Shown in pieces: positions 31,585 to 35,990 of a stretch of 38,218 nt of DNA. Below the pieces are notes generated by a model. That model was not told the origin of the DNA, searched no databases, and was given only the letters and a program-made list of their open reading frames with translations. A program made the translations under genes and the position numbers. The DNA comes from Sulfurospirillaceae bacterium (GTDB lineage: Bacteria; Campylobacterota; Campylobacteria; Campylobacterales; Sulfurospirillaceae). How positions within the stretch are numbered: the first letter of the stretch is position 1; every line of letters starts with the position of its first letter. The stretch spans positions 1 to 38,218 of the forward strand of contig JAWVXD010000013.1 in NCBI GenBank assembly GCA_033723415.1, written 5' to 3'.

Positions 31585-32841
31585 ATGGATATAAAAAGGC
31601 GAACTTTGGACATAAACTTTGATGCCATAACAAAACTGTTGAACAGATCTGATGAATTCAAGATTAATAGCCTTCTCTATAAAATACAAGGTGATGCCCT
31701 AAAAGATATTATCTCGTCTTTGCACTCTGCAAAAATCCCAAAACAATATCTAACTTATAAAGAATTATTAAGAGAAAAGATCGAATTAAAATTTCAATTA
31801 AAAACAAAAGATACGATACTGTTTTTTGACGATATGATTTATGTTAAAAAGTTTTTACAAGTAGAATCTAAAGACCAGCAAGAAAGAAGATCATGCGGAA
31901 TTCCCGCAGAGGTATTGCAAGAGTATAAAGCAAAATATTTCAAAGATGATTCTCATAAAGAGATCATCTTCCGTTTGCTTGTTTCAGCTATGGAAGATAC
32001 GCTTAGCTATAAAAGGATAGATCCTTTACAATTCAATAAACTATTTATACCTGTTTTTATCAATATATTTGAGATTTTGCTTATAGAAAATACTGATTTG
32101 AACGATGAAGTCAGCATCAAGGGATTTGGGCTGTATCTTTTACGAGAGATGTTTGATGAGATTATGTTATATATCGCGGAAGATATACTATTTAATTTTT
32201 CAAATCACGATAGAAAAGCGATAGAGTTTTTAAGTTTTTTTAGTGTAAATGATACGATAGATGCAAAAGGTGTGAGGCACAAGTCAAAACCTATACTTGA
32301 TGAAAGTAACAATGCATGGAACATAACAACTATTAGATCTATCATGGTTCAGCACATAAAAGCAAAACAAGACCTATATGATAAGAAGAATGCTCTGGTT
32401 GCGATAAATAAAAAGCTTGATTCTTTCTCTCATTCTTTGATGGAATTAACTCAAAAAATCAAAGCTAAAGATTTAAATTATGATGAGATAGATAACAAAA
32501 TTGAAAATATAAAACACACATTACGAAAAACGGAAGAATCAGATAGCCCAACTGTAAAGTATGTGGAAGACGGTGTTGAAAAAGTTCTCGAAAAAAAACT
32601 GCTTACTACCAAATTGTTCAAAAAAGAAGATGAACTTTTGCTTGAGCAGCATGCCTTGAAAAAAGAGATCGATGTATTAGGTCTGCAAGTAGAGAATAAG
32701 AAAAAAGAGGTAGCGACTTGGCAAAAAAAGTACAATGAAGCAAAAGAAGCACTGAGACTTCTAGAAACCAAGGGTCACCCTATAGATGAACTCTACACCA
32801 GAATCAAAAAAGCACTCGCCAAAACTTTGACGATGAGATAA
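31585..32841 (+). CDS. Hypothetical protein with a long C-terminal coiled coil
   Basis: 418-aa ORF; K/E/L-rich heptad-like C-terminal half. Confidence 0.75.
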   Translation: MDIKRRTLDINFDAITKLLNRSDEFKINSLLYKIQGDALKDIISSLHSAKIPKQYLTYKELLREKIELKFQLKTKDTILFFDDMIYVKKFLQVESKDQQERRSCGIPAEVLQEYKAKYFKDDSHKEIIFRLLVSAMEDTLSYKRIDPLQFNKLFIPVFINIFEILLIENTDLNDEVSIKGFGLYLLREMFDEIMLYIAEDILFNFSNHDRKAIEFLSFFSVNDTIDAKGVRHKSKPILDESNNAWNITTIRSIMVQHIKAKQDLYDKKNALVAINKKLDSFSHSLMELTQKIKAKDLNYDEIDNKIENIKHTLRKTEESDSPTVKYVEDGVEKVLEKKLLTTKLFKKEDELLLEQHALKKEIDVLGLQVENKKKEVATWQKKYNEAKEALRLLETKGHPIDELYTRIKKALAKTLTMR

Positions 32842-32906
32842 ATACCAGGAAACCCCACTCACCGACCAAGACTTGGTCGAACTCGTCATGAAGAGATATG
32901 GCATCT

Positions 32907-32976
32907 AATCGAAAAATTACCCCCCCTGCTTCTCAATATTTTTATACTTTTCAACCCAAAGATAGACTAGTTCCAT
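32907..32976 (-). pseudogene. 5' remnant of an ABC/AAA_21-type ATPase gene
   Basis: ATG at 32976 reads MELVYLWVEKYKNIEKQGG*, with NFS following in a shifted frame after a G7 run; resembles the MELVYLWVE.YKNI..QGFNFS N-terminus I recall from Campylobacterota ATPases; has its own TGCTATAAT promoter. Confidence 0.6.
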
Positions 32977-32998: not shown

Positions 32999-33018
32999 TT
33001 TCAAATCATTATAGCAAA
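32999..33018 (-). repeat. Left copy of a 20-bp direct repeat containing an extended -10 box
   Basis: TTTCAAATCATTATAGCAAA; 19/20 identical to 35933-35952; reads TGCTATAAT on the minus strand. Confidence 0.7.
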
Positions 33019-33064
33019 ATGCAGGGATAAAATTTTCCTCAAACCACCTTTGATCTTTTTACGC

Positions 33065-33367: not shown

Positions 33368-34534
33368 TTATTTTTCAATTTTTATACCACTTTTTTGTAA
33401 CAAATCTCTATATAGCATTGATTCACCACTTGAACCTGGTTTATAATTGTCTGGTGTAAAATCTTCATCATTAATATTTATTTTGTTTAAAACTGTCAAA
33501 AACTGCTCTTTTGAGAGAACATCTCCAAAAGTTCCAAGATGTAGATATAATGGCTTTAAAAAGCGCATCAAAGCTTTAAAACCATTTGTTTTATTTAGGA
33601 TTAACCCTTGACCATTAAATTCCCATGCTACATTCCATCTTTCTCGTACAGCATCAAAATAATTCCAAATAATATCTGTAATTTCTAAATCTTTTTCTTC
33701 AATAAATAGATTTCTGAATATTGTTTTTTCAAGCTTATTTCTGTCTTTTTCCAATGGAGGTTTTTCACCTTTTAAATATATCGTTCTATCATTTCCTGCA
33801 TCAAGTGTTATGTATTTTAATAATGCTTCAACAAATGTTGCTTGCGTAAGAGTTTCATTCAGACGCCCTTTTGTTGCACTTCCAAGTCGTTTGATCCGTT
33901 GATAGAAAGGACTTTTTTCATGTTGATCAAGGGCAACAGCGATATTATGACAGAGTTTTTGAGGACTTCTTGCTTTTGCTAAATCATAAAGATCGTAAAC
34001 TAAACTTTTATTGACTTTTGTTTGAGCTAAATTTACAGTTGAAAATAAAAAAGCTTCTTCCGCAATATCTATATCAACAAAGATACTAACATTTATCTCA
34101 AAATCACCATTTGTATATTCTCTTAATCCTTCTATACGATGTTGTCCATCTAGAACTTTTGCAATGCGATCTACATCAATATTATTTGCAAAATCTTCAT
34201 CATCTCTGTAGTTTTTCAAAATCATTTGATTTTTGGATTCATCAAACTCTGCACATTTACTACTAATAGATAAGATTACAGCTGTTGGGAAACAAGCATC
34301 AGGTGATTTTGTATATTGAATAATTTCTTTTACTCGTTTTTCTTGAAGAGGTCTTTGTATCCCCAAATAAGATTCAAATCCTCGCTCTTCTCCTTCTATT
34401 CTTCTGACATCTGAGAATGTTATTTCTCGCAAAATTTTAGAGTTTATAGAAGCAATATAAAATTCACCAATAGGCTGTGTTACTTTAATACAAGGTACTA
34501 TTTTTTCAAATGGATAGACGATATTTTGTTGCAT
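33368..34534 (-). CDS. DGQHR domain (DndB-like, ParB/Srx fold) protein
   Basis: GIQRPLQEKRVKEI, FPTAVILS, VLDGQHRIEG, FSTVNLAQTKVNKSL. Confidence 0.93.
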   Translation of the reverse strand: MQQNIVYPFEKIVPCIKVTQPIGEFYIASINSKILREITFSDVRRIEGEERGFESYLGIQRPLQEKRVKEIIQYTKSPDACFPTAVILSISSKCAEFDESKNQMILKNYRDDEDFANNIDVDRIAKVLDGQHRIEGLREYTNGDFEINVSIFVDIDIAEEAFLFSTVNLAQTKVNKSLVYDLYDLAKARSPQKLCHNIAVALDQHEKSPFYQRIKRLGSATKGRLNETLTQATFVEALLKYITLDAGNDRTIYLKGEKPPLEKDRNKLEKTIFRNLFIEEKDLEITDIIWNYFDAVRERWNVAWEFNGQGLILNKTNGFKALMRFLKPLYLHLGTFGDVLSKEQFLTVLNKININDEDFTPDNYKPGSSGESMLYRDLLQKSGIKIEK

Positions 34535-34544
34535 TTTTATTCCT

Positions 34545-35045
34545 TCATCTGTGTTTATTAACTTGTTCTAAAAAATCATTTTCACTATTGCGCATAGTAT
34601 TTGATGGATCTGGCATTAAGCTATTATGAATTACTAGAGCAAAATACATAATTACAACAGAAGTTATATAAAAACCTATTGAAACATTTATCCAAGGTTG
34701 ATTTATAGTCATATTGTTTGTTCTCTGAGATATTATAATTATTGTTTCAAAAATCGTAATTATTAAAGTTACCCAAATAAAGAAATGTTTAAAATAAAAA
34801 CGTTTATTTTCTTCTCTATCCTTTATTGCTAAATAAAAAATTGGAGCTAATGTAGTTGCAGCATAAATAAATAATTCACCATTATGTACTAACAGAAAAA
34901 ACCTATCTAAAGAAAAAATATCACTTGTTTTAGAAGATAAAAAGAAATATAAACCCCATAATGGTAATGTAGAAATCATCAACGAATAAAACAGCTCAAT
35001 AAAAGAGTTTTTAAAAATTTGGAAATTAACATTCAGGTCTTGCAT
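34545..35045 (-). CDS. Four-TM membrane protein, candidate effector
   Basis: 166 aa with four hydrophobic segments; sits between dam (3-nt gap) and the DGQHR gene (10-nt gap). Confidence 0.85.
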   Translation of the reverse strand: MQDLNVNFQIFKNSFIELFYSLMISTLPLWGLYFFLSSKTSDIFSLDRFFLLVHNGELFIYAATTLAPIFYLAIKDREENKRFYFKHFFIWVTLIITIFETIIIISQRTNNMTINQPWINVSIGFYITSVVIMYFALVIHNSLMPDPSNTMRNSENDFLEQVNKHR

Positions 35046-35048
35046 ACT

Positions 35049-35852
35049 TTATCCTTGAATTAAATATTCTTTGCTTTTCCCTCTAGCGTTCGCATTACCT
35101 GCTATCACGCTATGCCTTTCAACAGTTGTAATATGAAAATCTTTTTCATATAATTCTCGAATTGATTGGTGATGTGCATTAGTTAACATAATTTTCACTC
35201 CTCGTAATTTAGCTTCTAATAATATGTGATGCAATCTTTCTTGGTCACTCCATTCAAATAATACTTCATTGTACTTAACAAAACCATTGTTATCATGTTT
35301 AACAGTATAAGGTGGATCAACAAAAAGAAAATCATCTTCTTTTGCCATGGCAATTGTTTGTTCAAAATCTAAATTTAAAATTTTTGTATTTTTCAAACGA
35401 TTAGAGATTTCTTGAAAATTATCACTATTTAATATTACATTTGTTTTTGTACCTATTGGCACGTTAAACTCGCCTTTTTTATTTACCCTGTATAGTCCAT
35501 TCCAACAAGTTCTATTTAAATATATAAATTTTGCAGCTGATGTAAAAATAGATTTCGTTTTTTTTGATCTCATGTAATAATAAAAATCCCTATTATGTTT
35601 TGTATGATACTTAATTAATAATTTTTCTACTTTTCCCCAATCTTCTTGAATAGCTTTATATGTATTTATCAGGTCTGTATTCATATCAGAGATAATTGCT
35701 TGTTTTGGATTTTTATTAAAATATACAGCCCCACCTCCAACAAATGGTTCTATATAATTATTAAATTTTTCTGGAAAAAGATTAGCATAATTTACAGTTA
35801 ACCACCTCTTCCCTCCAGCCCATTTTAAAAATGGAACGAGGTTTGTATTCAT
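35049..35852 (-). CDS. Dam-family (D12 class) N6-adenine DNA methyltransferase, with no cognate endonuclease in the window
   Basis: PFLKWAGGK, YIEPFVGGGAV, FIYLNRTCWNGLYRVNKKGEFNVP, FVDPPY; ATG at 35852 downstream of AAGGAG (alternative TTG at 35876). Confidence 0.94.
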   Translation of the reverse strand: MNTNLVPFLKWAGGKRWLTVNYANLFPEKFNNYIEPFVGGGAVYFNKNPKQAIISDMNTDLINTYKAIQEDWGKVEKLLIKYHTKHNRDFYYYMRSKKTKSIFTSAAKFIYLNRTCWNGLYRVNKKGEFNVPIGTKTNVILNSDNFQEISNRLKNTKILNLDFEQTIAMAKEDDFLFVDPPYTVKHDNNGFVKYNEVLFEWSDQERLHHILLEAKLRGVKIMLTNAHHQSIRELYEKDFHITTVERHSVIAGNANARGKSKEYLIQG

Positions 35853-35932
35853 GTATTGAGATATCTCCTTATCCAACTTAAATTAACTATCTTTTATCTA
35901 TTTCAACCAGTTTTATAGCTTTATAAATTTTA

Positions 35933-35952
35933 TTTCAAATCATTATACCAAA
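35933..35952 (-). promoter_or_regulatory. Probable promoter (extended -10) of the dam-4TM-DGQHR operon; right copy of the 20-bp direct repeat
   Basis: Minus strand TTTGGTATAATGATTTGAAA (TGnTATAAT). Confidence 0.65.
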
Positions 35953-35990
35953 TTAGAAAAAGAAAATTTAATTTTTGCTAAAAATTTAGA

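What the first reader, a model, noticed from the sequence alone, without database searches (positions are those of the whole stretch)
33368..35952. Candidate new anti-phage system: Dam-family methyltransferase + 4-TM protein + DGQHR protein in one operon
Seen: three co-oriented genes with 3-nt and 10-nt gaps behind one TGnTATAAT promoter, visibly more AT-rich than sulP, with no restriction endonuclease and no dndACDE genes in the window. Known: DGQHR/DndB-like ParB-fold proteins occur in Dnd and Pbe systems. As I recall, they also occur in the two-gene Dazbog system, whose sensitivity has been linked to phage DNA methylation. Small multi-TM proteins are common abortive-infection effectors. Inference: this is a methylation-coupled, nuclease-free module in which the MTase marks self (or acts as a guarded decoy for DNA-mimic anti-restriction proteins), the DGQHR protein senses and the membrane protein kills or arrests the cell. 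It may be a Dazbog-like pair with a dedicated methyltransferase.
Basis: partly seen in the sequence, partly recalled or inferred. Interest (0 to 1): 0.85.

Follow-up and report, generated by a model that had tools for sequence, protein, structure and literature searches.

The report
Methylase-gated membrane DGQHR defence module
Three linked genes (a DNA adenine methylase, a small membrane protein and a ParB-like DGQHR protein) form a widespread, untested mobile cassette that looks like a restriction-modification system in which a membrane-bound pair takes the place of the usual DNA-cutting enzyme.

Summary
The operon is real and conserved. The membrane gene lies directly upstream of the DGQHR gene in 78 of 78 genome loci with enough flank, and an adenine methylase is adjacent in 59 of 61 full-context loci, under 13 phylum-level labels and in prophages. 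The methylase slot is filled by three different enzymes (Dam-like D12, MT-A70, long D12), swapped repeatedly, so the methyl mark, not the methylase protein, seems to matter; this disfavours the decoy idea. Reciprocally, 29 of 32 loci of this methylase subfamily carry a DGQHR protein against 0 of 51 controls, in three formats: membrane partner, unknown helical partner, or fused PD-(D/E)xK nuclease. Indirect evidence points to m6A in RGATCY (GATC core). Best reading: a restriction-modification-like system in which the DGQHR domain reads absence of the self mark and the membrane protein is the swappable effector or anchor. It did not meet the Dazbog, Dnd, Dpd or Ronin features I could test. No paper describing it was found in 10 searches. 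Defence, motif and mechanism are all inferred, not shown.

The parts
35942..35950 (-). Extended -10 promoter-like site (TGnTATAAT) upstream of the operon
   Evidence: Sequence; consensus match only, 328 such sites in the genome
35049..35876 (-). D12-class (Dam/DpnM-like) m6A DNA methyltransferase of a subfamily tied to DGQHR proteins; DPPY intact; predicted target GATC core, probably RGATCY
   Evidence: TIGR00571 249 bits, PF02086; DPPY in 105 of 105 aligned members; aligns with DpnM and EcoDam; reciprocal linkage
34545..35045 (-). 166-aa all-helical membrane protein, 3-4 predicted membrane helices, conserved E17, P28, NGELF (55-59), P68, FP (83-84) and a C-terminal amphipathic helix; no known family or fold
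   Evidence: 227 representatives at E<=0.001; alignment A2; AlphaFold pLDDT 93.8; no convincing fold match
33368..34534 (-). 388-aa DGQHR protein: N-terminal ParB/Srx-fold domain (QR 60-61, DGQHR 129-133, FxxxN 164-168) plus a helical C-terminal domain shared with other DGQHR proteins
   Evidence: TIGR03187 216 bits, PF14072; invariant motifs; best structural matches PadC, KorB, sulfiredoxin at Z 6.1-6.8; C-terminal part
32999..33013 (.). Left copy of a 15-bp exact direct repeat (overlapping a second TGnTATAAT at 33016-33008) that brackets the module; possible insertion scar
   Evidence: only two exact copies in the genome; a third site with 3 mismatches in 22 nt on C6
35933..35947 (.). Right copy of the 15-bp direct repeat, overlapping the operon's promoter-like site

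Best explanation
A restriction-modification-like defence cassette without a classical restriction enzyme. (1) The methylase writes m6A on self DNA at a GATC-core site, most likely RGATCY (family shown; activity and motif inferred). (2) The membrane protein and the DGQHR protein are the obligate 'restriction' half, made together by translational coupling (linkage shown; complex inferred). (3) The DGQHR protein's ParB/Srx-fold NTP-binding domain and helical domain check DNA for the mark, as the related DUF262 domain does for phosphorothioate in SspE and DndI (inferred by analogy). (4) Unmarked incoming DNA switches on the response at the inner membrane: arrest or depolarisation through the membrane protein, or capture or attack of DNA by the membrane-tethered DGQHR protein (least certain step; I put membrane protein as effector at about 55% and as anchor at about 45%, given steps 1-3).
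For: Membrane gene upstream of DGQHR in 78 of 78 genome and 66 of 66 metagenome loci with at least 650 bp upstream; start overlaps the upstream stop in 68 of 79. Adenine methylase within about 2-3 kb in 59 of 61 full-context genome loci, upstream (43) or downstream on either strand (10) for the Dam type, MT-A70 in 5, long D12 in 1. Dam type and MT-A70 never together; MT-A70 rows fall in at least four places of the DGQHR tree, one as sister of a Dam row with SH-aLRT 100. Both genome loci without a neighbour methylase have a candidate elsewhere in the genome: the same MT-A70 subfamily with a BglII-family nuclease, or a canonical Dam. Reciprocal test: 29 of 32 subfamily methylases have a DGQHR protein within 3.5 kb, 0 of 51 controls; 16 with our type, 6 with a 500-aa DGQHR plus 440-aa partner, 7 with a DGQHR fused to a PD-(D/E)xK-like domain, so the effector varies and DGQHR is the constant. 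Motif: MT-A70 and long-D12 substitutes pair with BglII/BstYI-family nucleases (7 of 18 MT-A70 loci); an Acinetobacter system of the same methylase-HTH-BglII layout methylates RGATCY (PMC10287943); Zymomonas CP4-group plasmids carry this Dam subfamily and CP3, of that group, is the only one of 9 strains with RGATCY m6A (PMC8088579). Mobility: lower GC than flanks in 58 of 58 loci, patchy spread, 20 close viral loci, with repressor, integrase, tail, portal or spanin neighbours in 10.
Against: No experiment. Little defence-island signal: of 136 flanking genes of the genome loci only a handful hit PADLOC nuclease or defence models. RGATCY avoidance is weak and uneven: O/E 0.82 and 0.72 in Dam and MT-A70 loci but 1.04 in viral loci and 0.97 for the non-palindromic members in flanks. 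The in-trans MT-A70 has a 24 of 120 background in that family. 3 of 23 full-context metagenome loci lack a methylase in range (two have one at 4.3-4.7 kb). Methylase and DGQHR distances correlate only weakly (rho 0.24 against 0.60 for the membrane-DGQHR pair). The motif links are by layout or strain group, not by sequence match to a characterised enzyme; that CP3 holds the plasmid is not shown in the paper. Ssp/DndI sensors respond to the presence of the self mark by releasing DNA, and Dazbog to foreign methylation, so the direction of sensing is not fixed by homology.
Confidence: 0.55

Rival explanations
1. Addiction module: the pair is toxic when the mark is lost and the methylase acts as antitoxin, keeping the prophage, plasmid or island in place; phage defence is secondary or absent.
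For: Same linkage data; frequent on prophages and plasmids; standalone rather than in defence islands.
Against: Sister formats of the same methylase carry a nuclease domain or a HerA pair, typical of defence; in 7 loci a nuclease-fused DGQHR gene and our pair flank one methylase. Not exclusive with the best explanation.
Confidence: 0.13
2. Guard or decoy (Ronin/PrrC-like): the methylase protein binds and holds the pair inactive and is displaced by a phage anti-restriction protein; methylation is not needed.
For: Precedent: Ronin pairs HsdMS with a membrane effector and works without methylase catalysis (bioRxiv 2023.04.06.535777). In some loci the pair sits beside a complete methylase-BglII system that it could guard.
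Against: Three different methylases, MT-A70 among them, replace one another; DPPY is intact in 105 of 105; the methylase can lie on the opposite strand or elsewhere in the genome.
Confidence: 0.12
3. Dazbog-like: the pair detects a foreign or excess modification (phage methylase activity) and aborts infection; the adjacent methylase is a separate protective gene or sets the baseline.
For: Dazbog is a two-gene system with a ParB-fold (DUF262) protein triggered by a phage cytosine methylase (bioRxiv 2022.08.27.505566); DUF262 and DGQHR are related (PMC4619093).
Against: Does not explain a near-obligate, reciprocal link to an adenine methylase; gene order and domain call differ; no Dzb hit.
Confidence: 0.1
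4. Non-defence role: the DGQHR protein is a DndB-like transcription regulator of the methylase or of the mobile element, tethered by the membrane protein.
For: DndB is reported as an ATP-dependent repressor of dnd genes (as summarised in PMC10853773).
Against: Weak similarity to DndB (25 bits against a cut-off of 328); no HTH partner logic; nuclease-fused sister format; methylase often in a separate transcription unit.
Confidence: 0.08

Closest known systems
Type II restriction-modification systems of the BglII/BstYI family with m6A RGATCY methylase (Acinetobacter baumannii A118 RMC; PMC10287943, passages read)
   Same: Adenine methylase marking a GATC-core site; the module's substitute methylases come with this nuclease family
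   Different: In the Dam-type module no BglII-family nuclease is in range (0 of 65 genome loci); a membrane protein and a ParB-fold protein stand in its place
SspE, DndI, GmrSD/BrxU (DUF262 ParB-fold NTPase sensors of DNA modification)
   Same: ParB/Srx-fold domain with DGQ(H/Q)R, QR and FxxxN motifs; modification-gated action is the model for step 3 (PMC11662687 abstract; PMC10952713 passages)
   Different: No DUF1524 HNH nuclease, mark is m6A rather than phosphorothioate or modified cytosine, and a membrane partner is obligate
Dazbog (DzbA/DzbB)
   Same: Two-gene core with a ParB-fold protein, link to DNA methylation, proposed abortive infection
   Different: There the ParB-fold gene is first and was called DUF262; here it is second, after a membrane gene, hits PF14072 and not PF03235, and has its own methylase
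Ronin
   Same: Methylase plus membrane protein without a restriction nuclease
   Different: Ronin uses type I HsdMS and a 61-aa single-helix effector, has no ParB-fold protein and does not need catalysis
DndB, DpdB and TIGR04172 DGQHR_dnd_1
   Same: Same superfamily; TIGR04172 aligns over the full length
   Different: All below curated cut-offs (25/328, 85/300, 212/450 bits); no dndC or dndD in the genome

Membership tests
Dazbog | First gene carries DUF262 (PF03235), as described in bioRxiv 2022.08.27.505566 | tested here: not met
   First gene of the pair is the membrane protein; the DGQHR protein hits PF14072 and not PF03235 at E<=0.1. I recall that DzbA is also annotated PF14072 elsewhere; not checked.
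Dazbog | Match to DzbA/DzbB profile models | tested here: inconclusive
   No Dzb hit for the three proteins or 97 membrane homologues in PADLOC-DB 2.0.0, but I had no positive control showing that the library holds Dzb models
Dazbog | Triggered by phage DNA methylase, abortive infection | not testable with these tools
   Needs experiment
Dnd phosphorothioation system | dndC and dndD present with dndB | tested here: not met
   0 matches for TIGR03183 and TIGR03185 in the genome rated 100% complete; no Dnd genes among recurring neighbours
Dpd system (DpdB) | NF041060 above cut-off | tested here: not met
   84.7 bits against 300; dpdA and dpdC were not searched in the genome
TIGR04172 DGQHR_dnd_1 | Score above 450 bits | tested here: not met
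   211.5 bits
DGQHR domain superfamily (TIGR03187/PF14072) | Score above cut-off with DGQHR, QR and FxxxN motifs | tested here: met
   216 bits against 59; motifs invariant in 46 rows
Canonical type II R-M | Cognate restriction endonuclease beside the methylase | tested here: not met
   No recurring nuclease next to Dam-type modules; uncharacterised nucleases could be missed
Dam/D12 m6A methyltransferases | TIGR00571 above cut-off, DPPY motif | tested here: met
   249 bits against 115; DPPY
Dam/D12 m6A methyltransferases | Methylates GATC or a GATC-core site | not testable with these tools
   Indirect support for RGATCY only
Ronin | Type I hsdM-hsdS with 61-aa RonA | tested here: not met
   Methylase is a single-chain D12 enzyme, membrane protein is 166 aa and multi-pass

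The most novel reading that the evidence does not exclude
A family of restriction-modification-like systems in which a ParB-fold DGQHR NTPase is a general reader of missing m6A at RGATCY and is wired to swappable outputs (fused nuclease, helical partner, membrane protein); in this member, unmethylated phage DNA opens or activates a membrane effector of unrecognised fold, that is, restriction-type self/non-self recognition executed at the membrane without DNA cleavage.
Probability: 0.3. Interest if true: 0.85.

Novelty: new variant of a known kind. Interest (0 to 1): 0.66.

Why it matters
It would give a function to a large class of 'orphan' Dam-like and MT-A70 methylases and to stand-alone DGQHR proteins (4408 database proteins at E<=1e-20, not all of this subfamily), and would show that absence of a methyl mark can be read by a ParB-fold protein and turned into a membrane response. 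It makes a sharp, cheap prediction: host or phage Dam methylation should silence the system, so it can be tested with dam+ and dam- E. coli and phages grown on each.

Tried and rejected
Single-protein locus search of genome contigs found nothing; the alignment search did. Fold searches for the membrane protein gave only generic helical-bundle matches (best Z 7.7) and the Atlas only unnamed clusters. No solved structure matched the DGQHR profile by sequence; Foldseek rows were ParB-like but above E 0.001. No longer or fused form of the membrane protein among 8000 scored candidates, weak evidence. The 169-aa four-helix protein before a distant Bacillus DGQHR gene did not align with our family (probability 2%). 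Word-avoidance tests for the motif were inconclusive. blastn of the module against E. coli genomes found nothing and 399 other Gammaproteobacteria had no match (one genome not scored), so the prediction that Dam+ hosts carry the pair without a methylase could not be tested. sulP and the 418-aa left neighbour were not found in same-genus genomes (0 of 12 and 0 of 13), so no empty site could be compared. No RNA holder listed. The PF09195 search of the own genome rang nowhere, controls included, so it shows nothing. The tree is the quick version (SH-aLRT only), without L041 and L067, and no one-clade test was run. Literature: 10 searches found no description of this gene trio; the library lacks most subscription papers, and no supplements were read, so candidate lists in supplements of defence-discovery or methylome papers may hold it. 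PMC12839542 was seen only as a listing.

Full report
Observation. The three genes, their gaps (3 and 10 nt) and the upstream TGnTATAAT are in the sequence as described. The first gene is a D12 adenine methylase (TIGR00571 249 bits), the third a DGQHR protein (TIGR03187 216 bits), and the middle one has no credible family in Pfam, NCBIfam, PADLOC or PHROGs. The middle protein folds confidently as a helical bundle (pLDDT 93.8) with two strong and two marginal membrane helices and has no convincing structural match. The DGQHR model's best matches are ParB/sulfiredoxin-fold proteins over residues 19-171, at modest Z of 6.1-6.8. The host genome (2.43 Mb, rated 100% complete) gave no dndC or dndD match and one PF14072 gene.

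Conservation. A DGQHR alignment retrieved 277 genome and 283 metagenome stretches, of which the best 80 of each were kept; all counts below rest on those. The membrane gene is directly upstream in 78 of 78 genome loci and 66 of 66 metagenome loci with at least 650 bp upstream, and in 68 of 79 genome loci a DGQHR start codon overlaps its stop. Among 61 genome loci with full context, 59 have an adenine methylase in range: Dam type upstream in 43, downstream in 10 (6 on the opposite strand), MT-A70 in 5, a longer D12 enzyme in 1. Among 23 full-context metagenome loci 20 do; several metagenome loci duplicate each other or genome loci, so I lean on the genome set. The loci carry 13 phylum-level labels but are rare: only the own genome among 401 of its phylum, 0 of 399 other Gammaproteobacteria, and 3 of 401 Alphaproteobacteria for the methylase. 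The pair is lower in GC than its flanks in 58 of 58 loci. Of 31 viral loci, 20 are close relatives; 19 of them show the membrane gene, 17 the Dam subfamily, 2 an MT-A70 with BglII-family nuclease, with repressor, integrase, tail, portal or spanin genes next door in 10. Flanking genes rarely hit defence models, so this is a stand-alone cassette more than a defence-island resident.

The methylase is swappable. Dam type and MT-A70 never occur together, and MT-A70 rows fall in at least four places of the DGQHR tree, once as the close sister of a Dam row (quick tree, two truncated rows left out). Pairwise distances of the membrane and DGQHR proteins track each other (rho 0.60) more than either tracks the methylase (0.24, 0.28); kinship inflates all three. 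The two genome loci without a neighbour methylase have one elsewhere: the same MT-A70 subfamily with a BglII-family nuclease (background 24 of 120 in that family) and a canonical Dam. Enzymes this different are unlikely to share a binding surface, while DPPY is intact in 105 of 105 Dam-type members. I infer that the mark matters, not the protein, which lowers the decoy reading.

The reciprocal test. Searching with the methylase alignment gave a clear gap between a subfamily (46-57% identity) and generic Dam enzymes (37% or less). Of 32 subfamily loci (29 viral, 3 genomic), 29 have a DGQHR protein within 3.5 kb; 0 of 51 lower-scoring loci do, one of these being a partial subfamily gene at a contig end. 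Sixteen are our type, six a 500-aa DGQHR with a 440-aa unknown partner, seven a DGQHR fused behind a domain with a PD-(D/E)xK-like motif (weak hits to Mrr-like, CARF-PD-(D/E)xK and Card1 nuclease models). Some of these contigs are the same as. So the constant unit is methylase plus DGQHR, and the membrane protein occupies the slot that a nuclease fills in a sister format.

Which mark. The methylase aligns with DpnM and EcoDam across the target-recognition segment (the role of that segment is recalled). The substitutes come with BglII/BstYI-family nucleases in 7 of 18 MT-A70 loci and in the Acinetobacter plasmid locus, whose methylase-HTH-nuclease layout matches the A118 system shown to write m6A in RGATCY and to be bypassed by Dam (PMC10287943, passages). 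Zymomonas CP4-group plasmids encode this Dam subfamily (46% identity, with the sister DGQHR format), and CP3, of that group, is the only one of nine strains with RGATCY m6A (PMC8088579, section 7 and passages), although the paper could not assign CP3's contigs to plasmids. M.CsaI is a precedent for a GATC-like enzyme that proved RGATCY-specific (PMC3526280, section 11). None of these is a sequence match to a characterised enzyme, and word-avoidance tests were inconclusive. I put a GATC core at about 80% and RGATCY at about 60%.

Mechanism. Shown: linkage, intact motifs, swapping, mobility. Inferred: self-marking; sensing by the ParB-fold domain, by analogy with SspE and DndI (PMC10952713 passages; PMC11662687 abstract; PMC4619093 passages); response at the membrane. 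Whether the membrane protein is the effector or only the anchor is open, since ParB/Srx-fold proteins can be nucleases or NTPases (PMC10853773 passages), and in Dazbog the gene partnering the ParB-fold protein could not be deleted (bioRxiv 2022.05.11.491447, section 10). Overall confidence 0.55; addiction 0.13, decoy 0.12, Dazbog-like 0.10, regulation 0.08.

Known systems. It works most like a type II system with a DUF262-style sensor, but fails the membership features I could test for Dnd, Dpd, TIGR04172, Ronin and canonical type II; Dazbog fails on gene order and domain as described in bioRxiv 2022.08.27.505566 (passages), while the profile test lacked a positive control. Other papers seen as passages: bioRxiv 2023.04.06.535777, bioRxiv 2024.10.26.620412, PMC12065111 (notes solitary methylases beside Menshen and raises the same idea for DUF262), PMC11711589, PMC9025767 and PMC13390346. 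Ten searches found no description of this trio; supplements were not read. Earlier AI notes of this scan describe the same module in other genomes; they were read after my own neighbourhood counts and are not independent support. What this report adds is the reciprocal test, the three formats on one methylase subfamily and the RGATCY lead.

Verdict. A real, widespread, apparently undescribed and untested restriction-modification-like cassette; new variant of a known kind; interest 0.66.

Noticed in passing
window 32999-33019 and 35933-35953: A 15-bp exact (19 of 21) direct repeat, each copy overlapping a TGnTATAAT site, brackets the module; only two exact copies in the genome. The left copy points at no ORF of 60 aa or more. 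Possible target duplication or promoter remnant.
   Followed up: partly
window 32851-32910, + strand: A 19-codon open stretch after the 418-aa gene that by recall resembles the C-terminal part of sigma-54; possibly a gene remnant. Not tested.
   Followed up: no
window 31585-32841: 418-aa ORF with a coiled-coil C-terminus, no family above cut-off, not found in 13 same-genus genomes.
   Followed up: partly
L009, L024, L043, L104, L113, L114, L151: A 770-790-aa PD-(D/E)xK-DGQHR fusion gene (partial in L104) lies directly upstream of the same methylase that precedes the membrane-DGQHR pair: two DGQHR modules around one methylase.
   Followed up: partly
L227:5810-9134, L229:5831-9245: The same methylase subfamily followed by a HerA ATPase and an unknown 450-aa protein instead of DGQHR: a possible fourth effector format.
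   Followed up: partly
L166:3809-7471 (Zymomonas 30.9-kb plasmid): DGQHR (496 aa), unknown 440-aa protein and this methylase subfamily, near a DUF4433 and macro-domain pair; a cultured, tractable host for the sister format.
   Followed up: partly
L167:3108-5903, L168:427-4303, L171:3995-5924: More distant DGQHR proteins followed by 290-325-aa unknown proteins, two of them behind other methylase types; no PADLOC system matched the partners.
   Followed up: partly
L022:1522-1791: A 17-bit fragment resembling the Dam-type gene upstream of the pair, with MT-A70 downstream: perhaps a replacement caught in progress.
   Followed up: no
L240:6289-7222: A member of this methylase subfamily with no DGQHR gene in range, beside a Tad5 anti-Thoeris gene on a 110-kb viral contig: possibly phage counter-defence by self-methylation.
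   Followed up: no
L185 (G000:C2:180417-181283): A second, unrelated D12 methylase in the host genome.
   Followed up: no
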